Shown here piece after piece: positions 9,107 to 42,892 of a stretch of 64,000 nt of DNA. This stretch comes from a virus (Duplodnaviria; Caudoviricetes). Made by a program: the position numbers and the translations under genes. The notes under the pieces were generated by a model. It was not told the DNA's origin. It searched no databases and saw only the letters and a list, made by a program, of their open reading frames with translations. The stretch is from positions 10,435 through 74,434 of the IMG/VR virus record IMGVR_UViG_2905984197_000003; one strand, 5' to 3'. The stretch's first letter is position 1; each line of letters starts with the position of its first letter.

Positions 9107-10125
9107 TAATCCAATCTTGCGGTTAAGGTTATTCTATATTCATTCGGTGTTAACGGTGCCAAAACATCTATCTGTACATCATTTTCTGTAATTGGGACAC
9201 AGCTTACATTTATTCTTCTGTTATCTGCATTTCGGTAGCAGGTATAATCAACATTCCTGGTATTCCAATTATGATTAATAGGAAAAGTAACGGAAGAGCC
9301 ATCTCCGATCAGCACTGTTTTAGATTTGATTTTTGCATCCAAAACAACTTTTGTAGATCTTGGAGTCATTGCTTTAACAGCGTCAGTTCCCGCAATAGCT
9401 TCAACATCTGTGGCTATTTGAATAAGCCCTTTCACTGTATCGGTAGCATCTACAATGTCAGGAATACCTTTTTCTATAATCTGATAATTGGTAGAAACAT
9501 TCGAAGCGTTATCAATATTAGCAATAAGATGATCACCGATAGAAACAGGCTCATTGCCAACCCAGCCATTTGCCGTAATTACCCATACCATACCTGTTTT
9601 GATGGTCGCCGATGTCATTGGTGACGGAGCGGTCATTGAGCCTTTAGCAGTTGAAGGAATATAACCTCCGGGCTGATAAATCAATGCTCCTGTAAGGCTT
9701 TGTCCTATAAAGTTTTCGACATACGTTTTAATCTTATTGGATGACCATGTAAATGTATTTGACTGAGTAGCATCATTCAGGAAAATAGAAACAATATCTG
9801 CATTGGTAAGATTTCGGCCCGCTACTTTAATAACATGCCCTGAACTATTGGTCAGGATCTGACTCAGCAACAAAAGTCCGTTGGTCTGATCTGTCTGAAA
9901 AGGATTATTAGTCAACGGATAATCAGGATGTACGTAATTTTGAGCCAAGTCAATCCATTCGGTTCCGTTCCATTGGTGCAACTGACGTTTATAATCAATT
10001 ATCCAACCTGCAGGTACATTATCCGTACTTGGAAATGTATCAAAATATTGAAAACGGGTGCGTTTCAGTTCTCCGAAAAAATTATCCTGATGTGCGTTAT
10101 TACTTATTATTGCGTTATTATTCAT
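9106..10125 (-). CDS. Tail fibre-associated protein
   Basis: 339 aa; fibre-repeat motif DATDTVKGLIQIATDVEAIAGTDAVKAMTP; stop/start overlap with the long fibre gene. Confidence 0.7.
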   Translation of the reverse strand: MNNNAIISNNAHQDNFFGELKRTRFQYFDTFPSTDNVPAGWIIDYKRQLHQWNGTEWIDLAQNYVHPDYPLTNNPFQTDQTNGLLLLSQILTNSSGHVIKVAGRNLTNADIVSIFLNDATQSNTFTWSSNKIKTYVENFIGQSLTGALIYQPGGYIPSTAKGSMTAPSPMTSATIKTGMVWVITANGWVGNEPVSIGDHLIANIDNASNVSTNYQIIEKGIPDIVDATDTVKGLIQIATDVEAIAGTDAVKAMTPRSTKVVLDAKIKSKTVLIGDGSSVTFPINHNWNTRNVDYTCYRNADNRRINVSCVPITENDVQIDVLAPLTPNEYRITLTARLD

Positions 10126-10140
10126 AGTTTTTTTATTTTT

Positions 10141-10752
10141 TTATGGTTTAACTTTTAAAATGAGAATGTTAATTGGGTTAGGAAGATCTCCTAACATCTT
10201 AATCTCTATGGTTTGGTTGGTTGCGTAATCGTCAATATTTATTTTTTTACCCGTTACACTATCCCGTGCCTGAATGATCACGTTTTCCGTTTCAAGGGTA
10301 TTGGGGAAAACTGTACTTCCCGTAATTTGTACCACTGCACTTGTAGGGGTCTGTGAAATGAGCAAAACTTTATCATAGATTTGCTTATTAAATTCCTGTT
10401 GATTTTTGGGGCTCTGTAACCAATCGTAGTCAAGTAATAGCTTTACTTTATCTTCTCTTGATTCACCGATCGGAATAGCTTTTAAAGCTTCAATATCCTC
10501 ACGGCTTTTTTTAATGAAACCGACTATTTCCTGAAGCTCATCTAAAGACAGATCATCAGATAACAGTTTCTTTTTAATACCTTCTATCTCCAATTCAAAT
10601 GATTGAAAAACTTCTTGAAGTCCTTCAATATTTTCCTTAGGGATTAAATATTCTTTGTGATAAAAAGATAAAAACGTTTCTTTAAACTGTGTTTGCGTCG
10701 GAAAATCTCCAGTTTCAAACCAACTGAAGATTGTATTTAATGGTGTACTCAT
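10141..10752 (-). CDS. Phage structural/fibre-adaptor-like protein, paralogue of 2193-2945
   Basis: WFETGDFPTQTQF N-terminus and LDELQEIV motif shared with 2193-2945. Confidence 0.6.
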   Translation of the reverse strand: MSTPLNTIFSWFETGDFPTQTQFKETFLSFYHKEYLIPKENIEGLQEVFQSFELEIEGIKKKLLSDDLSLDELQEIVGFIKKSREDIEALKAIPIGESREDKVKLLLDYDWLQSPKNQQEFNKQIYDKVLLISQTPTSAVVQITGSTVFPNTLETENVIIQARDSVTGKKINIDDYATNQTIEIKMLGDLPNPINILILKVKP

Positions 10753-10901
10753 TTAATGATTAAAAATTAGTTTTGATAAAATTGATAATTGGAGAAAGGC
10801 CTGTATCGTTCACAGGTTGATTGCTTGAATAGAATTCTATATTTCTTGAGCGATTATGGATTTTTCACCCCTTTTTATCACCCTTATCAATTAATGAATT
10901 G
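10753..10901. repeat. Conserved non-coding leader, copy A (homologous to 2946-3091)
   Basis: Same three conserved blocks as copy B; palindrome ATAGAATTCTAT at 10829-10840. Confidence 0.85.
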
Positions 10902-11006
10902 CATGGTCATCATCAAGAAAACCATGCTTTAGTTGTATTGCTATCAAAGTCACCCATTCAAAATAAAATGACTTTAAATGCAATACGAATTACAGTTTTT
11001 AAAATT

Positions 11007-11447
11007 CTATTTTGCAAAAAACAAATCAGCTTCTGCTTTTCTACGTCTGATTAAACCATTCAAAACTTTACCTCCCGCGGTAGTATATCTTGAAGAAAAC
11101 CAATCTTTAATGGTTTCTGAATTTGCTTTTTTATTGATCAAAGAAAATAGAGTGTCCGATCCTCCTGTGTTGTAAGTATGCGATACAAGAGCGTCAAATT
11201 GATTTTGTGTAAGCGAGATTTTAATTTTATTCTTAACTATTTTTTCATACGTCGGCAAAACAGATGAAAATAATTCAGCTCCTTTTTCTTTGCTGATGGA
11301 AGGATCTTTCATGGTTACTTTTTTTCCGCCTGGGTAATACGTATTTCCGTAGCCAATTGTCGGGATTCCTGCTGAATCCAGATAAGGTTTGGAACTGAAT
11401 CCTTCAAATGATAAAATCAGATTGATTCCTTTTTGTGATGTTTTCAT
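11007..11447 (-). CDS. Endolysin, GH24 phage lysozyme
   Basis: Catalytic E-x8-D-x5-T pattern (FEGFSSKPYLDSAGIPTIGYG), LTQNQFDALVS, GLIRRRKAEADLF. Confidence 0.95.
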   Translation of the reverse strand: MKTSQKGINLILSFEGFSSKPYLDSAGIPTIGYGNTYYPGGKKVTMKDPSISKEKGAELFSSVLPTYEKIVKNKIKISLTQNQFDALVSHTYNTGGSDTLFSLINKKANSETIKDWFSSRYTTAGGKVLNGLIRRRKAEADLFFAK

Positions 11448-18843: not shown

Positions 18844-19331
18844 CTTTTAAAGGTTGATTTGTGAACTTTTACATTTCCAGTGCTTTTCACTTGATTACTA
18901 TCATATTGAAAAACAGTTACCGAAGCTTTTTCCATGCATTCGATTTCTACCTCAGCATTATCCAGAATATTGATTATTAGAATTGCGTTTCCGGAAGCTT
19001 TTATTTTCGCCTTAGTATCATGTCTTAAAATCAGTTTTGATACTGAATAACTATTGTAACTTAATTCAATCTTACTTTCTCCGAAGTAAGCTGCTTCAAA
19101 CTCACTTTTATTACTACCTATATAATCCGTATGAAGTCCATAGATATCAGATTTGCCTTTGAAAGCTCTTAAAGTTTCAATATCCGGGAAGTCGTTTTTC
19201 ATACTCCAATCGTCACCTTCGAAATACATTTGGCAAAGATTTTCAAGTGAAGAATCGTTTTTCATTTTCTCCTGGTAATCTTTACACAGATTTTGCTTCT
19301 TTGCCAAGTTTAAAATATTGTTCGTTTTCAT
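18840..19331 (-). CDS. Phage hypothetical protein downstream of TMP
   Basis: 163 aa; overlaps both neighbours; beta-repeat-like C-terminus. Confidence 0.7.
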   Translation of the reverse strand: MKTNNILNLAKKQNLCKDYQEKMKNDSSLENLCQMYFEGDDWSMKNDFPDIETLRAFKGKSDIYGLHTDYIGSNKSEFEAAYFGESKIELSYNSYSVSKLILRHDTKAKIKASGNAILIINILDNAEVEIECMEKASVTVFQYDSNQVKSTGNVKVHKSTFKR

Positions 19332-22300
19332 TATGGTATACCGGCAGCGCCTTTTTTAACTTTTTGATTTAATTCAGAAATTTCTTTTAAAATCGCCTTC
19401 AGTGGTCTAGTATTAATTTCGATTTGACTTTGAATCAATAATTGATTTTTAAATACATTTTGATTAGCCTGGTGAATTTTAAGAATTGCAACGATGTTTA
19501 TTCGAACAGCATTAAACTGAGCTTCCAATGCTCCGGCAGTCTTTTCGGTAATTCCTTTGATATCGCCTTTCATGCCTTGAGCGTTTTCTGCAGCAGAACC
19601 GAATAAGTCCTCATATTGTTGGAGGGCTGCGGTATACTGTTGCATTGCCGTCAAGCCTAAAGCTTTTATCTTTTCACGCTCTTCTTCCGTAAGTCCATCA
19701 AAGGAACCTGAAACTGAGTTTGCTGCAATTTGTTGCTGAAGAATTTTAATTTTTTCCAGCAAATAATTTTTAGTAGAATTCAAATTAGCAGCAACAGAAC
19801 TATTTACTGTAGGTATTTTTTTTTCAATCTCTGCAATTTGATCTTGATAATTTTTAAGTGCCGCAGCTTGTTCGGCTGTGGCTCCAGCTTCCCCACCAAA
19901 TCCCATTGATTGATATAATTTATCAACCATACTTTTTACAGCTGGCTCTAAAATTTTAATTTTTAAAGCATTCGCAACAGCGTTTCTCATAACGTCATCA
20001 ACAACCTTATCAAATGCAGTTGCAGCATCTTCTCCTTTTCCAAAAGCATCAATTAATGCATCAGCTATTTTTTGTGACCAATCTTTAAAATCTGTAGTTG
20101 TTATTGATTTTTGAAAATTGTCAATTACATCTTGGATTTGTACATTAATATCTTTAATCTGCTCTGTATATGCTGCAACTTTATCTTGGTCTACCTTTTT
20201 CTTATCAGATTCTTTAGACCTCATATCATAAAGGATTCTTTGTTGCTCCTTGAGATTAGCAATAAGATCTCTTTGCATGGCTATTTGAGATTCGCCAGCT
20301 GTCTTCTCTATTGCTCTTTGAAGTTCTTCGTAAGCAAATTTTAGATCGTCAACAGCTCTTTTCCATTCACGAATACCTTTTTCTTTCTTTCCATCACCAG
20401 CAGTTGAAAGCATTTTTACTATACCTACAACCATTTGCGCTATTCCGCCAACCATTTGCTGGATATTTCCTGAGAAATATCCAACTAAAGCATTTACTAA
20501 ACCTTCTAATGTTTGAGTAAGATCTTTTGCAAATTTTTCAAAAGGGCCACCCTTACCATCCATTCCAAGTGCTTCGGACAATTCTTTTGCAGAGTTTACA
20601 GCTAAATCTGTGTAAAATTTAGTTTCTTGGATGTGTTGATTTAAACGGTTAAAATCTTCTTGTGTAGCAGTTCCTTCGCGAATTCTTTTTCTTAATTCTT
20701 TAAAGCTTGCTATAAGTGATTTAAAGGGACTGTTTCCGGTTGTAAGTTTTTTTAAGTCTTCAATCTTTTTTCTGAAAACTTCAACTTCTGCAGTGGGAGC
20801 TCCCAAATTAATCAGATTCTCCATTTCTTTTTCAAGTTGTGGAATCAGTTGGGAAATCTCTTTTTTAGTTAAAGCGTCAATGTTTCCAAAAGCTTTCTCA
20901 AAAAGATCTGTCTTTTCAAAAACCGACATAAAAGCACTTCGGTACTCTTTTGCTTCATCTTTTCCTGCAGCATTTAATAATTTTAATCGCTCAGAATCAG
21001 AAACACTCATTAATCCTATTCTTCGACGGAAGTCATTATATTTTTCAGAAATTTGTATTTGTTTTTGCTCAAAAGTTTCTTGTTCCTTTATGAAGTTAGA
21101 GTAAATCTCTTTTTGCTGCTGGGAAATTTCCTTTTTTCTTTCTTGAAGGTATTTTCTTTGCTGAAGAAAGAAATCGGTATTACCGCCTGATTTTTGATAA
21201 GCCTCACTCTGTGTATTTTCAATCACATCCAATTGGTCCACAAATGATGGCAACGCTTTCAAAGCATCATCAATTCCCCTTTTAAAGTTTTCAAAAGGTG
21301 TTTCTGTGCCATTTAGTTCAGTAATTTTTTGCTGAAGGAAAACAATATCTTTTTTATCCTTTTCTGTTAATAGTCCGGTAGTTTGCTTTGCTCTTAAGAC
21401 CTGTTCTTGTTTTTCTAAGTATTCAAGATAGTTTTGAGCACCGTTAAACAATTCTTTATATTGAGCATCAGCGGTTTCCTTACCATAAAATTCAGACATC
21501 TTATAGTAATTATTCCATTGGCGTTCTGACTCATCAATTCGCTCTTGGAAAGATTTGTATTGAAGGGATGTAATCTTGTTTTCAATAACCTCTCTACGTT
21601 TGTAAGCTTCTTCAAGACTTACACTTTCGCCTGTTAAATATGCATTACCTTTTTTATCCTTGTCTTTTCCAAATTTATCGAGTTTACGAAGTTTAACTTG
21701 ACCATTAATCGCAACATCTATAGCATCAGAAATCAAAGAAGCTCTTTGTTGAAGTTCTTTAATTGATCCTTTAGGAATAATTTCAGCAAGCTGATTTTCT
21801 TGCTTTTCTTTTTTCGGATTTAATAAATCATCAAGTTTTTTCTTTTGTGCTTCAAGTTTCCTGTAAGCTGCCTCAGTTGGCGCAGAATCCATTTGCGCTG
21901 AGATCTCATCGATCTGAGCTTTTATTTTCTGAGCCCAACCTTTTTTTGCAGGTGTTTTGTCTTCTGTAATTTCGGTTTCGGTAATATTTACACCTCTTTT
22001 TGCAAGATCATCTAACTTTTTCTGAATCTCTTCTTTCTCCGCCTCCTTATCCTTGACAATTCTATCTACACGCTCCTTTTTTCTTTCTTTTAGACTCCAG
22101 TTAAAACTACTATCGAAATCTGTGAAATCATCCCACATATCGCCAAGACCAAAATCTCCTCGAGTGTTTTTTAAATCTTCGGTATCTGTTTCTAACCTTC
22201 CTAATTCATTAACATATCTCTTTGCCTCGGCTTCAAGCTTCAACATTTCAATATATTTCTGAATCATTCCTGTAGCTTTCCCAGTTTTTACAGCCTCTGC

Positions 22301-24097
22301 ATCTAATTGATCAAGTCTTCCATTAGTTAGTAATGCAATTCTTTTATAGGCGGCAGCTTTCGTATCTTCTGATGAGGTTTGATCTTCAACAACTTTAATT
22401 AAAGCCTTTATTTTTGCTTCTTGTTCAGTAATTGTTGAAATCTGATTCTTAGCATCGTCATTCATTCTTTTCTGCGATTCTTCAGCAACCGTTAAGGCAG
22501 TATTATATTTATAAATAGCATATCCCAATGCTATAATCAAGGCCGTTGCTAAAGCATACGGATTAGAAAACAATGTTGCATTTAAGAATGATGCAGCTTT
22601 TGCCGCTGCCGTCATGGCAAGAGTTTGTGCTGTTTGAGCGAATGTTAATCTTTGAGTTGATAAAGTATTAAGCGTTTTTGCTGCTGTTTGCTCAATCTCA
22701 GTAGCCGTCTCTACCGTATTAGTTACCGCTGATAAACTTGTAGCTGTATTTTTAAGTTGAGTTTGTGTTGTTTGGAATTCAGTCGCTGTAGTTAAAGCTC
22801 CCTTTCTAGCTATTGAAGCATTCTCTTGCGCTGCTTGCACAGTGTTTTGAGCTTTTTCAACATTTTTCGTAGCAATTAAAACCTCTCTAGCTGAACCATT
22901 TGCTTGAACAGATCTTAATTCTGCTTTAGCTAAAGCAAGTTGAACCTGAGCATTTCCTAAAGCTTGTGCTTTTTCGATAGCTAAAGCAATTGCTTTTTGC
23001 TTTTTCACAGCTAATGAAGAAACCTCAGCTTGAAGCGTTGCGTATTTAGTCGTTAAAGCAGCTCTTTCAGCTTGGGCTTCAGCAAGAGTTGCAGCAGTTT
23101 GTCTTTGCGTAACTATTGCACGGCCGAGTTTCATCCTTTGCGAAAAAGATAAATACCCTATTTCCGTTGCTAATGTTTTATTCGCTACTGATTGAGCAGC
23201 TGAAGTGACCATTATAGCTGCTTTATATGCTCCATACGACAATACAAGAGTTTTTATTATTTCGAATAACTCTTGATAATGCTCAACTAAATGTGTTAAT
23301 CCATCAATACCGTCGTAAAGAATACCTTCATTAGCTTGACCAATTTTGTTTAGCATTTGATCCCATTGATCGCCAAGATTCGAAACTCTTCCAGACATTG
23401 AGGTAGACTGTTTTTCCATTAATTCGAAAAACATTCCTCCCTCGCTTGTCAGATTTTTGATTACCTGCTCAACATCTTTAAAACCTACCTTGCCAGCCTC
23501 AATCATACCTTTGATAGCTGTCTCATCAGTTTTTAGAACCTTGGCTAATTCAGCATACATTGGAATACCAGCTTCGGTGAACTGACGCATTTCCGTACCC
23601 ATTAATCTTCCGGCAGCTTTTACCTGACCATATGCAAGAATAATTCTATCAATAGGAACTGAAACCCCTGCGGAAATGTTTCCGATCCTAGTTAAAGTAT
23701 CTAAAAGGTCTTTCGCAGGAACCTGGAATGCAAGAAGTTGTTTCGCACCTACAGATACATCTTTTAAAGAAAACGGAGTTTTAGCAGCCAGATCAACCAT
23801 TTGCCCCATCAATACCTTAGCCTTATCAGCACTTCCAAGCATTGTAGAAAATGCAATTTCCGTTTTCTGGAATTCACCTCTTACATTGATAAGCTCTTTT
23901 GTAAATGAGAATAGTGTTTGAGCGGAAAAGTAACCACCGATAGCGGTTCCTAGATTACGGAAAGCCGAATCCATTTCCTGAGCTTCTTTTTTTGCAACTC
24001 CTGAAGCTTCACGAATGCTATTTTTGATACGAGTTATACCGGCGTCAAAATTATTAACGGATAAAAGTGCATCGAAATGTAAAGCTCCCTGATTCAT
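19331..24097 (-). CDS. Tail tape measure protein (1588 aa)
   Basis: Long Ala/Lys/Glu-rich helical protein with N-terminal tape-measure domain (AAKTPFS, AYGQVKAAGRLMG, LTSEGGMF); follows the chaperone genes. Confidence 0.95.
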   Translation of the reverse strand: MNQGALHFDALLSVNNFDAGITRIKNSIREASGVAKKEAQEMDSAFRNLGTAIGGYFSAQTLFSFTKELINVRGEFQKTEIAFSTMLGSADKAKVLMGQMVDLAAKTPFSLKDVSVGAKQLLAFQVPAKDLLDTLTRIGNISAGVSVPIDRIILAYGQVKAAGRLMGTEMRQFTEAGIPMYAELAKVLKTDETAIKGMIEAGKVGFKDVEQVIKNLTSEGGMFFELMEKQSTSMSGRVSNLGDQWDQMLNKIGQANEGILYDGIDGLTHLVEHYQELFEIIKTLVLSYGAYKAAIMVTSAAQSVANKTLATEIGYLSFSQRMKLGRAIVTQRQTAATLAEAQAERAALTTKYATLQAEVSSLAVKKQKAIALAIEKAQALGNAQVQLALAKAELRSVQANGSAREVLIATKNVEKAQNTVQAAQENASIARKGALTTATEFQTTQTQLKNTATSLSAVTNTVETATEIEQTAAKTLNTLSTQRLTFAQTAQTLAMTAAAKAASFLNATLFSNPYALATALIIALGYAIYKYNTALTVAEESQKRMNDDAKNQISTITEQEAKIKALIKVVEDQTSSEDTKAAAYKRIALLTNGRLDQLDAEAVKTGKATGMIQKYIEMLKLEAEAKRYVNELGRLETDTEDLKNTRGDFGLGDMWDDFTDFDSSFNWSLKERKKERVDRIVKDKEAEKEEIQKKLDDLAKRGVNITETEITEDKTPAKKGWAQKIKAQIDEISAQMDSAPTEAAYRKLEAQKKKLDDLLNPKKEKQENQLAEIIPKGSIKELQQRASLISDAIDVAINGQVKLRKLDKFGKDKDKKGNAYLTGESVSLEEAYKRREVIENKITSLQYKSFQERIDESERQWNNYYKMSEFYGKETADAQYKELFNGAQNYLEYLEKQEQVLRAKQTTGLLTEKDKKDIVFLQQKITELNGTETPFENFKRGIDDALKALPSFVDQLDVIENTQSEAYQKSGGNTDFFLQQRKYLQERKKEISQQQKEIYSNFIKEQETFEQKQIQISEKYNDFRRRIGLMSVSDSERLKLLNAAGKDEAKEYRSAFMSVFEKTDLFEKAFGNIDALTKKEISQLIPQLEKEMENLINLGAPTAEVEVFRKKIEDLKKLTTGNSPFKSLIASFKELRKRIREGTATQEDFNRLNQHIQETKFYTDLAVNSAKELSEALGMDGKGGPFEKFAKDLTQTLEGLVNALVGYFSGNIQQMVGGIAQMVVGIVKMLSTAGDGKKEKGIREWKRAVDDLKFAYEELQRAIEKTAGESQIAMQRDLIANLKEQQRILYDMRSKESDKKKVDQDKVAAYTEQIKDINVQIQDVIDNFQKSITTTDFKDWSQKIADALIDAFGKGEDAATAFDKVVDDVMRNAVANALKIKILEPAVKSMVDKLYQSMGFGGEAGATAEQAAALKNYQDQIAEIEKKIPTVNSSVAANLNSTKNYLLEKIKILQQQIAANSVSGSFDGLTEEEREKIKALGLTAMQQYTAALQQYEDLFGSAAENAQGMKGDIKGITEKTAGALEAQFNAVRINIVAILKIHQANQNVFKNQLLIQSQIEINTRPLKAILKEISELNQKVKKGAAGIP

Positions 24098-29083: not shown

Positions 29084-29134
29084 CAAAAATAATACATTCA
29101 ATTGTACTATGTACGTTGGAAATTTGTATATTTG
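29084..29134. promoter_or_regulatory. Divergent Bacteroidetes-type promoters with an operator-like site between them
   Basis: TAnnTTTG on minus (29084-29091) and plus (29127-29134); TTGTA-N5-TACGTTGG at 29102-29119. Confidence 0.6.
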
Positions 29135-29233
29135 TCGTGTTAAAATATTGATATGTGTATTATTTCAATGGATTAAATAAATAAAAGACCGTGATTTTAT
29201 CGGCTTTTTTATCAATAATTAAATAGTTATAGC

Positions 29234-29542
29234 ATGGATAAAACTCACGCAAAACAACTTTCCTTAAGATTGGATAATTACCACCTAAAACAAATGCTTG
29301 ATAAAGCTAAAGAAGAAATAAAAGATTGGACTGTTGCTTCCAAAATTAACAAAGGACTTTCAAAAGGAACTGTTTGGAATATCCTCGCAAATAATTTTGA
29401 GGTGGATAAACACCTGAATAACATTGTTAAGTACAATTTGATTAGAGAGTATGGGGAATTTCTTCCGGAAAGTTTACAACCAAGAAAAAAGCAGTCCAAA
29501 CCTGAAATTATACCGGTTCATCAGGATCCTATTTTTAAATAG
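29234..29542 (+). CDS. Hypothetical protein, first gene of the plus-strand accessory block
   Basis: 102-aa ORF with AT-rich leader downstream of a promoter motif. Confidence 0.75.
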   Translation: MDKTHAKQLSLRLDNYHLKQMLDKAKEEIKDWTVASKINKGLSKGTVWNILANNFEVDKHLNNIVKYNLIREYGEFLPESLQPRKKQSKPEIIPVHQDPIFK

Positions 29543-29567
29543 ATTACTAACAAACAAAAATTAAATT

Positions 29568-29831
29568 ATGAAAACTGTAAAAGTAAAAATGACCAGAAAA
29601 GTTACTTACGAAGCCGTCTTAAAAGTAAGTGATGAAGATTTTGAATTAATAAAAGATATTGATAATGAAGATGTCGAAATGTATGACCGATCAACAATTA
29701 AAGATGTTGGCAACGGAATAAAAACCATTTCTACTAATAAAGTCTATGAGATATTGGATGATTTAGATGATCCTACTTTTGAAATAGATAAAGAAGAAAC
29801 AATGTTCGATGTTTTTGTAACTCCTGCTTAA
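29568..29831 (+). CDS. Acidic hypothetical protein
   Basis: 87-aa ORF in a tightly packed run. Confidence 0.75.
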   Translation: MKTVKVKMTRKVTYEAVLKVSDEDFELIKDIDNEDVEMYDRSTIKDVGNGIKTISTNKVYEILDDLDDPTFEIDKEETMFDVFVTPA

Positions 29832-29850
29832 CCCTTAAATAAAAACAAAG

Positions 29851-30117
29851 ATGAATACAATCTACAAATACGAATTGCAAACTATCGAACAACAAACTAT
29901 ATCAATGCCTGTTGGTAGTGAAATATTAAAACTTGATTTACAATTTGGCATCCCTTGTATTTGGGTTAAAGTTGATACTAATAGCGAATTAGGAGATAGA
30001 AATTTCTTCACAGTCGGAACAGGTAATTATCTGCATGATGGTGATTTAGATTTTATTGGAACATATCAGTTGTTAGATGGGAATTTTGTCTATCACGTTT
30101 TTGAAATCAATTTTTAA
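29851..30117 (+). CDS. Conserved small phage protein
   Basis: 88 aa; TIYKYEL...VGTG...IGTYQ...VYHVFE pattern common in phages. Confidence 0.8.
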   Translation: MNTIYKYELQTIEQQTISMPVGSEILKLDLQFGIPCIWVKVDTNSELGDRNFFTVGTGNYLHDGDLDFIGTYQLLDGNFVYHVFEINF

Positions 30118-30137
30118 CTACCAAATAAAATACTATT

Positions 30138-30578
30138 ATGAAACAGATAGAATTAGAATTACAGAAAAGACTTCTTGTTGTTGAGTATGTAGACAAAAAA
30201 GAAGCTGAATTGGATTTATTAACTCATAAAGCTTTTCCCGAATCTTATAAAACAGTCATTTGTTTAGGTTCTGAATTAACGGAAGAGATAGCGAAAGGAT
30301 TGGTTCATCAATCTATTCACACGGGTTTATTTGCTCACTATGTTAAAGATATTCCTGTAAATACATACTGCTATAAATCAGCTTTAGAATCTTTCTCAAC
30401 AGGGATAAAAAACGAAGGTTATAACATTGGAGGAAATCCCGTTTCATTGGAAAGAGAAAAACATTATAGGGATTTCGGAAATACTTTTGTTGCTGATGGA
30501 ATCCTTAGGTCTTGGCAAGAAGCTGATCGCCGAACCTTCAACCCAGAGAAAACATTAATATTTGAAATACTATTATGA
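30138..30578 (+). CDS. Phage hypothetical protein
   Basis: 146 aa; ATGA overlap with the next gene. Confidence 0.75.
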   Translation: MKQIELELQKRLLVVEYVDKKEAELDLLTHKAFPESYKTVICLGSELTEEIAKGLVHQSIHTGLFAHYVKDIPVNTYCYKSALESFSTGIKNEGYNIGGNPVSLEREKHYRDFGNTFVADGILRSWQEADRRTFNPEKTLIFEILL

Positions 30579-30940
30579 GCAGATTAGAAGAGATAAAAGA
30601 CAAGTATGCTAAAACCAAACAATTCGACAATTGGACAGATTTCATAAATGATGAATCGCATTGGATGGTTGAAAAACACATGGATAAAGTTTGCGAAATC
30701 TACGCAAAAGAATGTTCTCAGGCTTCTTTGGAGAAAGCGAAAAAAGACCTTTATAATTATTGGATATTTTTTGAAGAAGGCAAAACCAATTCACCTGAAT
30801 TCACAATTAAAGTAGAAGATCCTGCAAAAGTTTATAACACCGCTTATGAAGCTTATGGTCCACAAGTAGAAGATTTATTTTACAGCTGTGTATCTCATGA
30901 AGAATCAATCACCAACCCTGAAAACATTGTACTCCTTTAA
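30575..30940 (+). CDS. Phage hypothetical protein
   Basis: 121 aa; translationally coupled to the previous gene. Confidence 0.75.
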   Translation: MSRLEEIKDKYAKTKQFDNWTDFINDESHWMVEKHMDKVCEIYAKECSQASLEKAKKDLYNYWIFFEEGKTNSPEFTIKVEDPAKVYNTAYEAYGPQVEDLFYSCVSHEESITNPENIVLL

Positions 30941-30971
30941 TTTTTGACGAATTGGAACTAAAATAAACGAT

Positions 30972-31399
30972 ATGGAAAATACAATTGAAAATGGCTTGAA
31001 AAAGAACTGCAGCCAAGAAGTATATCTCTTTGGGGATCTGTAGCTCAAACCGATTTTGTTCCTGAGTTATGTTCAGAGTTTGAAGGTGATGGTCAACAAT
31101 TAATTTATTTTGGAACCGTAAACCAACGTCCTCGCTATTGGCTGATGAGAATTGATTCTAAGCATGATATTGAAAGTGAAGAGTTCAGTGATAAAATTGA
31201 AGAAATAGTTATTGAACCATTGTGTGAGGAATTTGGAGAGACAAAATGGCTAAGTGAGGAAAACTTTACAATGGAAAAAAATAGAAAAGGATTCAGTGAT
31301 TATGATGTAGAAGAATTTGACAATTACAATGAATGGATGGAAGAATATTCAGTGCTGAAAATGGTGATTGTTTGGGTGAAAATTATCTTGGAAGTTTAA
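30972..31399 (+). pseudogene. Acidic hypothetical protein with apparent 1-nt frameshift near 30988-30991
   Basis: ATG at 30972 (MENTIE). The reading frame of ORF 31145-31399 opens at 30989; adding one A gives MENTIEKWLEKELQPRS...MRIDSK. Confidence 0.5.
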
Positions 31400-31590
31400 C
31401 AAATGCAAAACTTACTAAAGTGATTCTTACAATCGCTCATCTTGACCATGATAAAGAGAATTGGGAAGTGAAAGATGAAAGATTGAAGGCACTTTGCCAA
31501 AGATGTCATTTGGTTTTAGATAAAGACCATCACGCAGAAAATAGAAGAAACACAATTAGCAAAAAGAAAGGATTAGAACCACTTTTTTAA
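31400..31590 (+). pseudogene. C-terminal remnant of an HNH-like protein
   Basis: KVILTIAHLDHDKEN...LKALCQRCH present, but the N-terminal CxxC half is replaced by the upstream gene. Confidence 0.65.
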
Positions 31591-31633
31591 GCTGACATCT
31601 TACTGTCTAAAAAACAATTTAAAAATAATTACA

Positions 31634-31930
31634 ATGGCAAGCAAAAATAAGCAAGAGTGCAAAGAACAGTTTCTTGAACATTTTAAAATGACTGAAGAGG
31701 ATTTGTCTGTAATATGGCGATGGTTCTTAGAATATGGCATGACTAGAGGTCAGAACGAAAACAAACCACACCAATGTAGAGCAAATCATTACTTCTTACA
31801 GGAGATATCGGAACGCTTCACTGTAAATTGGAAAGAGTGGAATAAGAAATTATCTCCAGAACTAAAAATATTAGTAATAAACTTATACCCACAATTGATG
31901 GTTAAGAATTACGATTTTGAATGGTTGTAA
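31634..31930 (+). CDS. Hypothetical protein
   Basis: 98-aa ORF with AT-rich leader. Confidence 0.7.
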   Translation: MASKNKQECKEQFLEHFKMTEEDLSVIWRWFLEYGMTRGQNENKPHQCRANHYFLQEISERFTVNWKEWNKKLSPELKILVINLYPQLMVKNYDFEWL

Positions 31931-32015
31931 AAATATTTAGTTTTCATGGTTTAGTTTTATCCTCGGCTACGGAAAACCACAATGAAAAACAATAACATCA
32001 ACTTAATTTTATAGC

Positions 32016-32240
32016 ATGAAAGAATTTAAAATTGAAGGACAACCGAATTTAATCCTTGAAGTTGTCAGGGCTTTAAAGTACAATTCTTCAGGGATTGGTT
32101 TACGAAAGCTTTACGACATCAAAATAGAAAGAAAATCATATTTCAATAATAAAATAATATTCACGGCTAAAGAAGGAAGAGAAATCAATACTCAACACTT
32201 TTTTTACTTAGCACTAGACATCAACTTAACAATATCATGA
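32016..32240 (+). CDS. Hypothetical protein
   Basis: 74 aa; ATGA overlap with the lipoprotein gene. Confidence 0.65.
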   Translation: MKEFKIEGQPNLILEVVRALKYNSSGIGLRKLYDIKIERKSYFNNKIIFTAKEGREINTQHFFYLALDINLTIS

Positions 32241-32626
32241 AAACTCTACTACTTTTACTTACATTAATTTTCTTCACATCTTGCACTGATGAGAGAGAAT
32301 CTGAACACTTCCAACCTCAGCACCAAATAATGGTGAATTTCGAGGCTAAAAAAGGTTCGGAAGGAGGAAATAATTTGCAATTAGCAAATGATAATGAAAC
32401 TAATATTGTAGAGAAGATTATCAGGAATCAAGAATTGCCCGAAAATATTAATTATCAAACTGTTTGCTCCGGTTCTAATGACAAAGGTTTGCAATTCGCT
32501 TACATTGAGATCAAAGGTGAGCTAAAAGGATTATTTCTCGCTGTTTTTGATGAAAATAGATTGATGGTTTTCAGAATAGAAAGCTTTTCCGGAAATTGTC
32601 TGCTAAAATGGGTTAGCGAAGTTTAG
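32237..32626 (+). CDS. Lipoprotein of unknown function
   Basis: SPII signal MKTLLLLLTLIFFTS-C followed by acidic TDERES. Confidence 0.8.
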   Translation: MKTLLLLLTLIFFTSCTDERESEHFQPQHQIMVNFEAKKGSEGGNNLQLANDNETNIVEKIIRNQELPENINYQTVCSGSNDKGLQFAYIEIKGELKGLFLAVFDENRLMVFRIESFSGNCLLKWVSEV

Positions 32627-32668
32627 TATATTTACTGTTAAATAAATTTTTAATTAAACGAATTACCA

Positions 32669-32959
32669 ATGAACGCACAAACAATTTTTAACAAATTAAG
32701 ACCAAATACTTTAGAAGTAATTGTTACAGACCTACAAAAACAGTTAAAATCTTTAGATGACTTTCTGTCAACAAGCGATAAGCCTGATCCCAATGACAAC
32801 GCTGAGAAATTTAAAGAAATTAGAGATTTAGAGCTTTTAGCTGTCAAAGCTTTTAATTTTGTTTCTGCAGAGAAACAATTAGAGCCATATAAATTATGTG
32901 AAAAAAGCGAATCTTATTTACAATTAGACAATGTCAAAAAAAATAATCTACCACGTTAA
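32669..32959 (+). CDS. Hypothetical protein
   Basis: 96-aa ORF in the plus-strand run. Confidence 0.65.
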   Translation: MNAQTIFNKLRPNTLEVIVTDLQKQLKSLDDFLSTSDKPDPNDNAEKFKEIRDLELLAVKAFNFVSAEKQLEPYKLCEKSESYLQLDNVKKNNLPR

Positions 32960-33149
32960 ACTCCACGAACCAATAGAAGGTAAAGCTGATTTCTTTTTCA
33001 GCTCTATTACTGCTATTTATAATACCTTCACTGTTGAACAAATAGGTGTGGCCAGACAGACATTATATCAGCAAAGTCTTAATCCTGGTGATGAGTATAG
33101 AACGAAGTTTTGTGTAGTGAAAAAAGAAGAGGTTTTGAATAATAAATAA
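32931..33149 (+). CDS. Hypothetical protein, possibly DNA-binding
   Basis: 72 aa; FFSSITAIY...EQIGVARQTLY resembles a helix-turn-helix. Confidence 0.65.
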   Translation: MSKKIIYHVKLHEPIEGKADFFFSSITAIYNTFTVEQIGVARQTLYQQSLNPGDEYRTKFCVVKKEEVLNNK

Positions 33150-33155
33150 ATTTAA

Positions 33156-33602
33156 ATGGAAAATATAGAATCAAGAATAAAAGATATAGCCATTGGGTTA
33201 TCTGTTCCATCTGAGAAAATAAAATTAGTTTACGATAACGTAAAATCAAAAGGCATAATGCACGGTGATGACCTTCGTCAATTGACAGAAATAGGAATGC
33301 CTATGGTTAAAGAACTATGTGCTTTATACGGCAAAACCACAACCGAAATTCAGTTAATGGTTCAAAATGGTGAAATTGATTTTAAGCATTTTGGAGCCGT
33401 TTTCCTATATCTTACTAATGAGGGTGGAATGTTTTATGAGCTAAAAAAGAAGCAATCGCAAATATGGGGATATCAATACAAGGAAGCTTTGAAACAGATT
33501 ATTATGAAAGCATACAATGTCGGATGGTTTGATTCTGAAAATAAAGGTCTTGATGATTATTCAGCAGAAAAATATTATAAAGAAAATTTTGAAAAAATTT
33601 AA
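33156..33602 (+). CDS. Stand-alone mini protein carrying a tape-measure domain
   Basis: Residues 7-101 align without gaps to TMP residues 137-231 with 42/95 identities (manual count). Confidence 0.85.
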   Translation: MENIESRIKDIAIGLSVPSEKIKLVYDNVKSKGIMHGDDLRQLTEIGMPMVKELCALYGKTTTEIQLMVQNGEIDFKHFGAVFLYLTNEGGMFYELKKKQSQIWGYQYKEALKQIIMKAYNVGWFDSENKGLDDYSAEKYYKENFEKI

Positions 33603-33605
33603 TCC

Positions 33606-33995
33606 ATGGATAGTAAAGAATTAAGAATAGGGAACTTCGTAAGCACTTCAATCGACGGAACTGATATATATATAGTTGAAGAAATAAAAATGCACGGATT
33701 ATTTCTTTCAAATCAAAAATCGATAACAGATACAGGCGAAGTTCAATATCATAATATATATCCAATACCATTAACAGCAGATTGGCTTCTGAAATTTGAA
33801 TTTATTCATTTAGGAATTGGATTTGTATCTCCGGATGATCTTCTTTTCGTGTGTGCTGGAAATAACGGGAAGTATGAAGTATTTTTATACAAAGAAGTTG
33901 AGGAAGATGTTTATTTAATTCATTGTGAGCAAGTCCACCAACTACAAAACTTATATTTCGCGCTTACAGGAAAAGAGTTAAATTTGAATAATTAA
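33606..33995 (+). CDS. Conserved Bacteroidetes phage hypothetical protein
   Basis: ELRIGN...PIPLTxxWLLK...VHQLQNLYFALTGKEL pattern. Confidence 0.8.
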   Translation: MDSKELRIGNFVSTSIDGTDIYIVEEIKMHGLFLSNQKSITDTGEVQYHNIYPIPLTADWLLKFEFIHLGIGFVSPDDLLFVCAGNNGKYEVFLYKEVEEDVYLIHCEQVHQLQNLYFALTGKELNLNN

Positions 33996-34013
33996 TAACT
34001 AAAAATATATAAA

Positions 34014-34244
34014 ATGGAAGAAAAAATTATAACGTTTACGCACGCTGGTGGAGTTAAAAAAGCTTCATTTGCAACTTCAGATATTCAAAGCTTCAAAACA
34101 TCGATAGATAAATGTTTAAAAGGTGAACTTCACGCAATTACACTTACTGATGATGATGGAGTTGATTCTATTTACCCGTCTCTTTATCTGCAAAATTGCC
34201 ATATAGAAATAAAAGATAAACTTGTAAGACATCGAAATCTATAA
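34014..34244 (+). CDS. Hypothetical protein, last gene of the plus-strand block
   Basis: 76 aa, followed by a terminator hairpin. Confidence 0.7.
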   Translation: MEEKIITFTHAGGVKKASFATSDIQSFKTSIDKCLKGELHAITLTDDDGVDSIYPSLYLQNCHIEIKDKLVRHRNL

Positions 34245-34246
34245 AC

Positions 34247-34269
34247 AAAGCCCCAATAAAGGGGCTTTT
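34247..34269. terminator. Bidirectional intrinsic terminator
   Basis: aaagcccc-aataaa-ggggcttt between convergent genes. Confidence 0.8.
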
Positions 34270-34518: not shown

Positions 34519-34603
34519 GGTTTTAATTTTTCCACAAATATAACAAAAAAGGCACTACTCAAGTTTACCAGCAAAACCCTGCTTGCATTAACTACTATAC
34601 CTA

Positions 34604-34630
34604 AAAAATAAAGCCCCGATTAACCGGGGC
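34604..34630 (-). terminator. Intrinsic terminator
   Basis: gccccg-attaac-cggggc stem with an A-rich left flank (U-tract on minus). Confidence 0.65.
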
Positions 34631-34650
34631 AGTTAAGAATTTTGAAAAAG

Positions 34651-34682
34651 TTTGCGTAATAACGAAATTATATATAATTTTG
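34651..34682 (+). promoter_or_regulatory. Canonical -33/-7 promoter with no long ORF downstream
   Basis: TTTG (34651-34654), 20-nt spacer, TAATTTTG (34675-34682). Confidence 0.55.
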
Positions 34683-34737
34683 TGTTACACAATAACGTAA
34701 TTCTTATAGTTAGCGCTTAAAGAAATACGATAGAAGC

Positions 34738-34833
34738 TTAAAGAAGGAAATTAATCAAGTAAGCTATTAGTTTTACCAGTTCGATAGTAATTTTGAGTTC
34801 TGGTGATTTTAAAAGTGATTTTAGTTTTTTCAT
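34738..34833 (-). CDS. 31-aa peptide with basic N-terminus and hydrophobic C-terminus (possible type I toxin)
   Basis: Translated by hand: MKKLKSLLKSPELKITIELVKLIAYLINFLL*; A-rich leader. Confidence 0.5.
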   Translation of the reverse strand: MKKLKSLLKSPELKITIELVKLIAYLINFLL

Positions 34834-35040
34834 AAGATTAGATTTTAGAAATTTTTTAATTGATTTTTGTACATACGTGTACATGTTGATAATGCTATTT
34901 ATCATTTTATTAATTTTTAATTATTTAATTTATTTGATATAAGAACCCCTCTCATGGTGTTCCGATACACAGAGTTACTTTATCTAATTGCGGATTTGAA
35001 TTTTTCTTTTACATAAGCTTTACATTTATTCGATTACAAA

Positions 35041-35088
35041 AAATATCCTTCTTGTCTATTCCCCAATATTCCGAAGGGTATTTTTTTT
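35041..35088 (+). terminator. Putative intrinsic terminator ending a plus-strand non-coding transcript
   Basis: atatccttc...gaagggtat stem with a large loop, followed by a T run. Confidence 0.45.
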
Positions 35089-35368
35089 ACTTCCTGTCCC
35101 AACTGTCTATATTTTAATACTTTAAGTTATTTCTCCGTGAAACAGAGGATAGTGTTTCTATCAATAGCTACATACAAAGTTAATGTATTGAAGTTGATTT
35201 TCAAATGGGCTGCGAGTAATTAGTGAAATTAGTAGATAATAGCGTTTTCTTAATTTCAATCATTTCTAATGCAAATTTAAAGTTTAAATTTCGTAAGTCA
35301 AAAAATCTTAATTTTAAAATTAAGATTAGCCCTCAATGGTAATATACTAGAAAACACAAAAAAGCCAT

Positions 35369-42733: not shown

Positions 42734-42822
42734 GCTATGGCTATTCCCAAACTCTAAGCTTGTACAATTCTCCAGGTGATCAACCTGTTTTCATTTGGGA
42801 ACAGCGCTCTTTAAAATGTTTG

Positions 42823-42892
42823 TGGAGAATAACGGATTCGAACCGGATCTACTGCATTATCTACAGTGGCTTTACCATTAAGCTAATTCCCC
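42823..42892 (-). ncRNA. tRNA-like element with non-canonical anticodon loop
   Basis: Acceptor GGGGAAT/ATTCTCC, D arm GCTT-AATGGTA-AAGC, anticodon arm ACTGT-AGATAAT-GCAGT (no U33), T arm CGG-TTCGAAT-CCG. Confidence 0.7.

What the first reader, a model, noticed from the sequence alone, without database searches (positions are those of the whole stretch)
33156..33602. Stand-alone mini tape-measure-domain protein on the opposite strand from the tail genes
Seen: residues 7-101 of this 148-aa protein align without gaps to residues 137-231 of the prophage's own TMP (nt about 23405-23689), with 42/95 identities including SVP, RQxTExGxPM and LTxEGGMFxEL. A different 47-aa tail follows. The frame is intact despite this divergence, and the gene lies in the accessory block, not the tail operon. 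Established: some prophage defence and exclusion proteins target TMPs. Inference: it may be a TMP decoy that titrates a TMP-sensing or TMP-blocking defence, or a dominant-negative inhibitor of tail assembly or DNA ejection by related phages.
Basis: partly seen in the sequence, partly recalled or inferred. Interest (0 to 1): 0.75.

Follow-up and report, generated by a model that had tools for sequence, protein, structure and literature searches.

The report
Stand-alone tape-measure core domain gene
A Chryseobacterium prophage carries a small, conserved, optional gene that copies only the best-conserved folded module of phage tail tape measure proteins; it probably acts in phage-phage or phage-immunity conflict, but its function is untested.

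Summary
ORF 33156..33602 (+) encodes 148 aa. Residues 6-101 align without gaps to residues 136-231 of the resident 1588-aa tape measure protein (TMP): 42/96 identical, E=6e-24.

It is a gene family, not a relic. Nineteen short protein clusters were found in Chryseobacterium and Myroides. The 16 placed in a tree of the domain form one branch.

It lies in an opposite-strand accessory block inside the head module, a slot also used in related phages.

It is optional. Two sibling prophages have a 98-100% identical TMP core but no mini gene. It does not track the resident TMP: two other phages keep a 93% identical mini beside a TMP core only 65% identical.

It is predicted soluble and all-helical, and it matches the only confidently folded part of the TMP N-terminus.

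My best guess (about 0.35) is a competitor that blocks tail assembly of other phages, working like Tab or Tai. The main rival (about 0.25) is a non-activating decoy for TMP-sensing immunity such as Avs18. Expression and binding could not be tested.

The parts
33156..33602 (+). Mini-TMP gene, 148 aa, predicted soluble and all-helical
   Evidence: ORF. Family of 146-164 aa homologues at 59-93% identity. AF2 mean pLDDT 84.6 with 8 helices. Maximum 19-residue hydropathy 0.65, so no membrane segment or signal peptide.
33171..33458 (+). Part homologous to the TMP core (residues 6-101)
   Evidence: BLASTP 42/96, E=6e-24. phrog_9959 E=3e-22. hhalign of the mini family against the TMP cores gives probability 99.9%. 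Twenty-three positions are conserved in both minis and TMPs.
33459..33599 (+). C-terminal tail (residues 102-148): a long helix, a loop and a short helix. Conserved in the family, missing in some variants.
   Evidence: Invariant tail columns. Tail-only search finds only P0001, P0002 and P0014. The tail is replaced after K99 in L003 and L037. No significant similarity to the TMP continuation. Helices 92-126 and 137-144 parallel TMP helices 222-255 and 266-272.
19331..24097 (-). Resident tape measure protein, 1588 aa
   Evidence: ORF. TMP_3 at 94.8 bits over residues 67-253. phrog_9959 E=1.4e-185.
23405..23689 (-). TMP residues 137-231, the paralogous core. It lies inside the only confidently predicted fold of the first 300 residues.
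   Evidence: Alignment. AF2 of TMP 1-300 gives pLDDT 78-92 only for residues about 121-220 (70 for 221-230) and below 50 for residues 1-74 and 231-300.
29234..34244 (+). Opposite-strand accessory block of about 17 small ORFs. It includes a lipoprotein candidate (32237..32626) and an HNH fragment (31333..31590).
   Evidence: GC is 0.31-0.33 with positive GC skew, against 0.34-0.38 and negative skew in the flanks. Block content differs between near-identical phages.
32931..33149 (+). 72-aa gene directly upstream (6-nt gap), phrog_10608. It recurs as the neighbour of the mini slot.
   Evidence: Homologues directly precede a mini in L001, L003, L037 and L072. In L041 and L042 the homologue is present without a mini.
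33606..33995 (+). 129-aa gene directly downstream, phrog_10066
   Evidence: Homologues occur in the same blocks of L035, L041 and L042.
34247..34268 (+). Terminator-like hairpin closing the + strand block
   Evidence: This is a consensus scan only: 6 sites found against 2.7 expected.
29127..29134 (+). Candidate -7 box (TATATTTG) 100 nt upstream of the first block gene. Weak evidence.
   Evidence: The motif is not enriched in the window (93 matches against 89 expected). The consensus itself is recalled, not taken from a call.

Best explanation
What it is (confidence about 0.95): a real, conserved, stand-alone paralogue of the folded core module of siphophage tape measure proteins. It corresponds to the second half of Pfam TMP_3, at about TMP residues 131-278. 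It is carried as an optional accessory gene in an opposite-strand block inside the head-morphogenesis region of Chryseobacterium and Myroides prophages.

How it most likely works (confidence about 0.35, inferred): the soluble cytoplasmic protein mimics the TMP core and competes for whatever that core binds during tail assembly. Candidates are other TMP protomers, the tail assembly chaperone, or the tail-end proteins. This would poison tail assembly of superinfecting or co-resident phages that have TMP_3-type TMPs. Infected cells would then release tailless particles and the lysogen population would be protected. That outcome is the one shown for Tab and Tai, reached here by paralogue mimicry.

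Shown: the homology, the conservation, the optional nature, the location, the predicted fold and the predicted solubility. Inferred: expression from the prophage, binding, and any effect on other phages.
For: Identity and conservation:
- Homology to the TMP core.
- Narrow but real family: 14 of 18 candidates at E<=1e-3 and 19 of 1691 candidates at E<=1e-5. All 19 are short proteins of 88-230 aa.
- In a tree of 166 domain rows (166 of 168 kept), the 16 minis lie on one side of a branch with SH-aLRT 98, although subfamilies share only 30-45% identity. The stand-alone form is therefore old and maintained.
- Fifty-seven columns are invariant among 12 members at 58-93% identity.

Optional accessory gene:
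- Siblings L041 and L042 have a TMP core 98-100% identical to the window's. They carry the 72-aa and 129-aa-like neighbours but no mini.

No tracking of the resident TMP:
- L003 and L037 have a mini 93% identical, while their TMP residues 136-231 are 65% identical.
- Each resident TMP core is only 28-44% identical to its mini. Other TMPs of the same bacterial family reach 54-58%.

Geometry like Tab:
- The gene is on the opposite strand inside the late region, with a terminator-like hairpin at the block end (Tab layout read in PMC10884400 section 8).
- The same slot holds opposite-strand genes in an isolated Riemerella phage, in G339 with a 98-aa mini and in G435 with a 96-aa diverged mini.

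Localisation and fold:
- No signal peptide or membrane segment. It would therefore meet TMPs while they are being made, not during injection.
- It equals the only confidently folded module of the TMP N-terminus. It could plausibly fold and bind on its own.

Other:
- A mini-like ORF also sits in a chromosome with no TMP_3-type TMP detected (G087). This fits a host-side benefit.
Against: - No expression data: no RNA holder was listed. Promoter motifs are at chance level.
- The partner of the TMP_3 core is unknown, and no solved structure exists.
- dN/dS from the four available DNA copies is inconclusive: 0.18-1.2, with only 3-14 changes of each kind per pair.
- The higher identity to foreign TMPs may only reflect the divergence of the resident TMP lineage from the family consensus.
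- The block could be an early lytic operon rather than a lysogeny-expressed moron. That would favour a counter-defence role.
- No antidote gene was identified, and no known defence model matches (PADLOC, 0 of 10 block proteins).
- Some variants are truncated (P0010 at 111 aa, P0166 at 94 aa).
Confidence: 0.35

Rival explanations
1. Counter-defence decoy. The mini is a non-activating mimic of the TMP core. It occupies TMP-sensing or TMP-binding host or prophage immunity (an Avs18-type STAND receptor, a SNIPE-type nuclease or a Tab-type blocker), so that the phage's real TMP is not sensed or blocked.
For: - SeAvs18 is modelled to bind a roughly 130-residue alpha-helical, most-conserved TMP segment, and that segment is necessary and sufficient for activation (PMC13581612 section 12, passages read; preprint section 11).
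- The mini is a helical module of about 100-148 residues. It coincides with the best-conserved, best-folded part of these TMPs. Its fold matches TMP cores of very diverse phages (19 BFVD hits at E<=1e-3).
- Fold-level sensing would explain why the mini need not resemble the resident TMP.
- Eight positions are fixed differently in minis than in TMPs, for example F to L at position 43 and FNLME to YELKK at 94-98. Such changes could uncouple binding from activation.
- SNIPE associates with TMPs (abstract only).
Against: - A free TMP core would be expected to trigger such a sensor, not silence it.
- I could not establish that the Avs18-bound segment is the TMP_3 core: figures and supplements were not available.
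- No Avs18-like gene was sought or shown in these hosts.
- Siblings with the same TMP core do without the mini.
- A mini-like ORF in a genome without such a TMP (G087) is hard to explain as phage counter-defence.
- Expression timing is unknown.
Confidence: 0.25
2. Non-essential helper of the phage's own tail assembly or ejection. For example, it could cap or chaperone the N-terminal TMP module or tune tail termination.
For: It is homologous to a tail component. It usually co-resides with a TMP_3-type TMP within about 6-20 kb: 4 of the 5 mini-bearing genomes in the genus search.
Against: - It is on the opposite strand from the tail operon, in a variable accessory block.
- It is absent from siblings with a 98-100% identical TMP core.
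- The same mini sits beside TMP cores only 65% identical to each other.
- None of 276 matching records of the phage collection has a stand-alone form: 0 cover at least 80% of the query.
Confidence: 0.12
3. Recombination relic with no function. It would be a TMP fragment left in the accessory block and drifting.
For: - Truncated or altered variants exist: a 111-aa form in L003 and L037, a 94-aa form with stops in the match in G087, and a 230-aa fusion in G435.
- One pairwise dN/dS is 1.2 (L001 against L037, 3 synonymous and 14 non-synonymous changes).
- The family is rare: 5 of 240 genomes of the genus.
Against: - Frames of the same length and the same start (MENIESRI...) persist down to 58% identity, and to 30-45% in subfamilies.
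- The minis form one branch in the tree.
- There are 57 invariant columns, including in the tail.
- The mini is better conserved (93%) than the TMP core (65%) between otherwise 96-99% identical phages.
Confidence: 0.08

Closest known systems
Tab (tail assembly blocker) of Pseudomonas phage JBD26, with anti-Tab (PMC10884400; introduction, section 7 passages and section 8 read)
   Same: Both are prophage accessory genes on the strand opposite to the late operon, inside the morphogenesis region. Tab's action is linked to the TMP of other phages, and its outcome is tailless particles. It is dispensable for the carrier phage.
   Different: Tab is not described as a TMP homologue, and its specificity maps to the TMP C-terminus. 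It has a dedicated antidote gene in the late operon. Here the protein is itself a copy of the N-terminal TMP core, no antidote was identified, and no phenotype is known. Sequence relatedness to Tab was not tested because no Tab sequence or model was at hand.
Tai / Ati tail assembly inhibition systems of phi80, PICIs and P4-like satellites (PMC11364771; abstract, sections 10-11 and passages read)
   Same: These are small moron-encoded proteins of prophages that protect the population by blocking tail assembly of other phages. They sit in accessory hot spots near the packaging and morphogenesis genes.
   Different: Escape mutations map to the central tail fibre J or the needle gp26, not to the TMP. 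The systems are found in Proteobacteria, and no homology to a structural protein is reported. The mini gave no PADLOC match (PADLOC-DB dates from 2023 and may not hold Tai).
TMP core segment recognised by the STAND receptor Avs18 (PMC13581612; passages read)
   Same: It is a helical module of about 130 residues, the most conserved part of TMPs, and active as an isolated fragment. The mini is a natural isolated fragment of the most conserved, best-folded TMP part here.
   Different: That segment is called 'central' and comes from other phages. I could not verify that it is the same module. It is an experimental truncation used as a trigger, not a phage-encoded gene.
Full-length tape measure proteins with Pfam TMP_3 (PF20155) / phrog_9959
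   Same: They share the core fold and motifs (23 shared conserved positions) and the helix pattern.
   Different: The mini has 148 aa against 1200-1700 aa. It lacks the first half of TMP_3, the ruler part and the position in the tail operon. It falls below the Pfam cut-off.

Membership tests
Tape measure protein (Pfam TMP_3 PF20155 / phrog_9959) | Significant sequence homology to the TMP_3 core | tested here: met
   BLASTP E=6e-24. phrog_9959 E=3.1e-22. hhalign probability 99.9%.
Tape measure protein (Pfam TMP_3 PF20155 / phrog_9959) | Reaches the curated Pfam whole-protein cut-off (41 bits) with the full domain | tested here: not met
   27.3 bits, with only profile positions 99-176 of 192.
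Tape measure protein (Pfam TMP_3 PF20155 / phrog_9959) | A long ruler protein encoded between the tail assembly chaperone and the distal tail genes | tested here: not met
   148 aa. It lies in the + strand block about 9 kb from the tail operon, on the other strand.
Tab-type prophage tail assembly blocker | Prophage gene on the strand opposite to the late operon, within the late region | tested here: met
   Integration is shown for a sibling inside an 803-kb contig. Layout of tab from PMC10884400 section 8.
Tab-type prophage tail assembly blocker | Own promoter and expression from the prophage | tested here: inconclusive
   Promoter-like matches are at chance level. No RNA run was listed.
Tab-type prophage tail assembly blocker | Sequence relatedness to Tab | not tested
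   No Tab sequence or model in the libraries used. PADLOC-DB 2023 gave no match.
Tab-type prophage tail assembly blocker | Paired antidote gene co-transcribed with the late operon | tested here: inconclusive
   None identified in the window. In G435 a mini-fusion (P0163) lies on the late strand between the TerS-like gene and TerL. This is a lead only.
Tab-type prophage tail assembly blocker | Blocks tail assembly of other phages through their TMP | not testable with these tools
   Needs plating assays and electron microscopy.
Moron (independent transcription unit inside a late operon) | Flanked by late genes, with its own terminator and deviating base composition | tested here: met
   Flanks. 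Terminator-like hairpin at 34247-34268. GC 0.31-0.33 and reversed skew. The promoter is not shown.
Envelope-located superinfection exclusion proteins (Ltp, HK97 gp15 type) | Signal peptide, lipobox or membrane segment | tested here: not met
   Maximum 19-residue Kyte-Doolittle mean is 0.65, with no hydrophobic N-terminus. The names Ltp and gp15 come from titles and references.
Ligand or mimic of the TMP-sensing receptor Avs18 | Corresponds to the roughly 130-residue helical, most conserved TMP segment bound by SeAvs18 | not testable with these tools
   The mini is helical and equals the best-folded, conserved TMP part here. The coordinates of the published segment are in figures and supplements that I could not see.

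The most novel reading that the evidence does not exclude
The mini is a phage-encoded mimic of a molecular pattern. It would be a domesticated copy of the TMP core, the same kind of module that NLR-like Avs18 receptors recognise. It would bind TMP-sensing or TMP-blocking immunity without activating it, or act in the other direction as a captured structural-gene fragment that restricts related phages, as Gag-derived Fv1 does in mice (recalled). G435 carries one diverged copy on the accessory strand and one fused copy on the late strand. This hints that pairs of such copies could work as inhibitor and antidote.
Probability: 0.2. Interest if true: 0.85.

Novelty: new variant of a known kind. Interest (0 to 1): 0.6.

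Why it matters
Tail assembly interference (Tab, Tai) and sensing of conserved structural cores (the Avs families) are recent discoveries. In both, the TMP has emerged as a target.

A natural, conserved, stand-alone copy of the TMP core would be a new way to play either side of that conflict. Inside a prophage accessory hot spot it could work by structural mimicry, either as a dominant-negative subunit or as a receptor decoy.

It also marks the TMP_3 core as an autonomous folding and binding module whose partner is unknown. It gives a small soluble handle (17 kDa) for finding that partner.

My six full-text searches listed no paper describing stand-alone TMP-core paralogues. I saw only their result lists and abstract starts.

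Tried and rejected
- RNA evidence: no RNA holder listed. The 4 runs found are one study and probably DNA. I did not lay reads.
- dN/dS: only four DNA copies (window, L001=L002, L003, L037). Nei-Gojobori ratios are 0.18-1.2 from 3-14 changes of each kind per pair, too few to decide.
- Tail as a diverged TMP continuation: hhalign on tails alone gave P=0.43-0.47, so it is not supported by sequence. The predicted helices are colinear, but the mini's alignment contained TMP rows, which may bias this.
- Search with the tail alone: only P0001, P0002 and P0014 (3 of 3 candidates).
- Solved structures: 0 sequence matches for TMP 1-253, and no Foldseek PDB hit at E<=1e-3 among 79 at E<=10.
- PADLOC on the mini and 9 neighbours: 0 of 10 matched. 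Pfam and PHROG on the neighbours gave only DUF7352, an HNH fragment and two unknown-function PHROGs.
- Promoter motifs: the sigma-70-like scan found 39 against 31.2 expected. TTTG-N17-23-TAnnTTTG found 9 against 5.6. TAnnTTTG found 93 against 89. None is informative.
- Integrase: no tyrosine or serine recombinase domain on the window's contig, so the integration mechanism is unknown.
- Metagenome and viral scans added only L003/L037-type copies and TMPs.
- Earlier findings of this scan: nothing.
- Co-evolution or gene conversion with the resident TMP: rejected.
- Envelope-located exclusion protein: rejected.

Full report
**1. Observation**

The ORF at 33156..33602 (+) encodes 148 aa. The resident tape measure protein (TMP) is 19331..24097 (-), 1588 aa. 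BLASTP aligns mini residues 6-101 with TMP residues 136-231 without gaps: 42/96 identical, E=6e-24. Profiles agree. phrog_9959 (tail length tape measure protein) scores E=3.1e-22. Pfam TMP_3 scores 27.3 bits, below its 41-bit cut-off, because only profile positions 99-176 of 192 are present. The TMP itself matches positions 1-191 at 94.8 bits.

**2. Setting**

Nearly all genes from 2 to about 59.3 kb run on the minus strand: replication genes, terminase-position gene, portal, MuF-like gene, head genes, tail genes. The exception is a run of about 17 small + strand ORFs, 29234..34244. It is inserted between a scaffold-position gene and the MuF-like and portal genes.

- The run has lower GC (0.31-0.33) and reversed skew.
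- It ends at a terminator-like hairpin.
- It holds a lipoprotein candidate, an HNH fragment, DUF7352 and unknowns.
- No known defence model matches: PADLOC, 0 of 10 proteins.
- The mini starts 6 nt after a 72-aa gene (phrog_10608) and ends 3 nt before a 129-aa gene (phrog_10066).

The window is the last 64 kb of a 127.8-kb contig of a 4.3-Mb genome. A sibling phage lies inside an 803-kb contig, so these are integrated elements. No tyrosine or serine recombinase domain was found on the window's contig.

**3. A gene family, not a one-off**

A word-indexed search of 5.8 billion proteins found 14 of 18 candidates at E<=1e-3. Twelve of them are 146-164 aa at 59-100% identity, one is a 111-aa form and one is an 88-aa form. 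Sources name Chryseobacterium and Myroides.

A profile of divergent members found 19 of 1691 candidates at E<=1e-5. All are short (88-230 aa), and two are further 110-aa members.

An exhaustive scan of 1.84 billion representatives gave 5868 hits at E<=1e-3. Of the 150 listed, the mini family is one cluster (P0004), with P0031 as a second short form. Almost all the rest are long TMPs or contig-cut pieces of them.

In genomes, 38 of 401 of the bacterial family and 25 of 240 of the genus have any match. Minis occur in 5 of the 240: G000, G449, G435, G339 and G087.

In the isolated-phage collection, 276 records match and none covers at least 80% of the query. The 30 listed rows lie under annotated TMPs or in unannotated records.

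**4. Age and constraint**

In a maximum-likelihood tree of the domain (166 of 168 sequences kept, 97 columns), the 16 minis lie on one side of a branch with SH-aLRT 98. Three of them are long branches, so attraction cannot be excluded. They also share the start MxNIE and the same truncation points.

Twelve core members have 57 invariant columns, in the tail as well. Twenty-three positions are conserved in both minis and TMPs. Eight are fixed differently in the two groups.

Pairwise dN/dS on the four available DNA copies is 0.18-1.2, from only a handful of changes, so it is uninformative.

**5. Relation to the resident TMP**

Gene-by-gene comparison gives the most informative result.

- L003 and L037 are phages whose chaperone-position, tube-position, MuF-like and portal proteins, and in L003 all the other compared head and tail proteins, are 96-99% identical to the window's.
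- They carry a mini that is 93% identical.
- Their TMP switches lineage near residue 135: residues 1-66 are 91-94% identical, 67-135 are 88%, 136-231 are 65% and 232-300 are 57%.

Conversely, L041 and L042 are more distant phages (68-97% in other proteins). Their TMP core is 98-100% identical to the window's. They have the 72-aa and 129-aa-like genes, but no mini between them.

The mini is therefore an optional cassette. It neither co-evolves with nor depends on a particular resident TMP core.

Resident cores are 28-44% identical to their mini. Some TMPs of the same bacterial family reach 54-58%. This pattern would suit self-tolerance, but it may only reflect lineage divergence.

**6. The slot**

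The site between the MuF-like gene and the scaffold-position gene is a hot spot.

| Phage or genome | What the slot holds |
|---|---|
| Riemerella phage vB_RanS_PJN03 (isolated) | Two opposite-strand small genes, no mini |
| G339 | A 98-aa mini, 33% identical to the window's and 28% to its own TMP |
| G435 | A homologue of the 72-aa gene, followed directly by a 96-aa ORF that matches the mini profile over 47 columns (hhalign 92%, E=5.7e-7) |

**7. Structure**

AlphaFold2 with a 42-row alignment gives an all-helical model: mean pLDDT 84.6, above 89 for residues 11-90, and eight helices.

- No PDB chain matches at E<=1e-3.
- No PDB sequence matches TMP residues 1-253.
- In the viral predicted-structure library, 19 hits at E<=1e-3 are mostly named TMPs of very different phages; a few rows carry no name.

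The first 300 residues of the resident TMP fold confidently only at about 121-220, with pLDDT 78-92 (70 for 221-230). Residues 1-74 and 231-300 fall below 50. The mini therefore equals the one autonomous module of the TMP N-terminus.

The helix pattern of the mini, including the tail (92-126 and 137-144), parallels TMP helices 222-255 and 266-272 at an offset of about 130. Tail sequences show no significant similarity. Whether the tail derives from the TMP continuation stays open.

The protein has no hydrophobic segment (maximum 0.65), so it is predicted to be cytoplasmic.

**8. Mechanism**

A soluble copy of a structural protein's folded core is optional for its carrier. It lies on the opposite strand in a variable hot spot. 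It is independent of the resident TMP lineage. These features are best read as a molecular mimic used in conflict.

Two directions have precedents.

- Interference. Tab of JBD26 is a prophage gene on the opposite strand within the late region. It blocks tail assembly of other phages via their TMP and is neutralised by a late-operon antidote (PMC10884400). Tai systems do the same via other tail proteins (PMC11364771).
- Sensing. Avs18 binds a roughly 130-residue helical, most-conserved TMP segment that is sufficient for activation. SNIPE associates with TMPs (abstract only).

I prefer interference (about 0.35) for three reasons: the Tab-like geometry, the cytoplasmic location, and the mini-like ORF in G087, a genome with no TMP_3-type TMP detected. 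I hold the decoy reading at about 0.25, a dispensable helper at about 0.12 and a relic at about 0.08. The remainder is something else.

Expression, binding and phenotype are all untested.

**9. Novelty**

It is not a TMP: it fails the length, position and Pfam cut-off tests. Membership of the Tab or Tai families was not testable by sequence.

Six full-text searches (lists and abstract starts seen) showed no description of stand-alone TMP-core paralogues.

I rate it a new variant of a known kind, namely prophage accessory genes acting on tail assembly or on its sensing, here by paralogue mimicry. Interest is 0.6: the family is real, conserved, narrow and directly testable, but it has no functional evidence yet.

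Noticed in passing
L072 (G435:C1:5136000-5154000) 8942..9634 (-): P0163, 230 aa, joins a mini-like N-terminus (about residues 1-115) to a C-terminal part with a borderline KH_2 match (21.8 against 22 bits). It lies on the late strand between a TerS-like gene (10560..11150) and TerL (7385..8941). In JBD26-like phages this inter-terminase gap holds tab and anti-tab. The same prophage also has a diverged 96-aa mini (1787..2077 +) in the opposite-strand block.
   Followed up: partly
L036 (G087:C11:948000-967000) 9119..9403 (+): A 94-aa mini-like ORF (P0166, 3 member sequences) lacks the EGGMF motif and has stops inside the match. It lies between ribosome-recycling-factor-like and UMP-kinase-like genes (named by eye from their translations, not by a search), with no phage genes nearby. 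The genome has no TMP_3-type TMP hit.
   Followed up: partly
window 23274-24097 (-), compared with L003 and L037: The TMP is mosaic between otherwise 96-99% identical phages. Identity drops from 88-94% (residues 1-135) to 65% (136-231) and 57% (232-300). The lineage switch falls at the start of the core module that the mini copies. This could mark recombination or diversifying pressure on that module.
   Followed up: partly
L003 and L037 10001-10336: A 111-aa variant of the mini. After K99 the tail and most of the 129-aa downstream gene are replaced by unrelated, largely non-coding-looking sequence. The variant recurs in two different loci, and as P0010 it has 4 member sequences.
   Followed up: partly
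window 42822-42892 (-): ARAGORN calls a tRNA-Tyr with anticodon ATA, which is unusual for tRNA-Tyr, inside the phage.
   Followed up: no
window 29184-29211: A hairpin followed by a T run lies between the candidate promoter box (29127-29134) and the first gene of the + strand block (29234). It could be an attenuator or a bidirectional terminator (read by eye).
   Followed up: no
window 34519-35368: An ORF-poor gap of about 850 nt lies between the block and the MuF-like gene. It has three of the nine full two-box promoter-pattern matches in the window (34651-34682 +, 35175-35205 -, 35272-35302 -) and terminator-like hairpins at 34613-34630 and 35363-35383.
   Followed up: no
window 32237-32626 (+): A 129-aa protein with a lipoprotein-like N-terminus (hydrophobic stretch, then Cys16) lies in the same block. 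It could be an exclusion protein or a spanin-type lysis protein. It has no family match.
   Followed up: no
window 31333-31590 (+), compared with L041 10964..11377: The HNH endonuclease match (phrog_1571, E=1.4e-15) is an 85-aa ORF overlapping the preceding ORF. The sibling phage has an intact 137-aa version, so the window's copy looks truncated or frameshifted.
   Followed up: no
P0014 (88 aa, no locus): This protein carries the mini's C-terminal tail (78% identical over it) behind an unrelated 40-residue N-terminus. The tail can therefore occur without the TMP core.
   Followed up: no
window contig (G000:C3): No tyrosine or serine recombinase domain was found on the 127.8-kb contig that carries the prophage. 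How this phage group integrates is unclear.
   Followed up: partly
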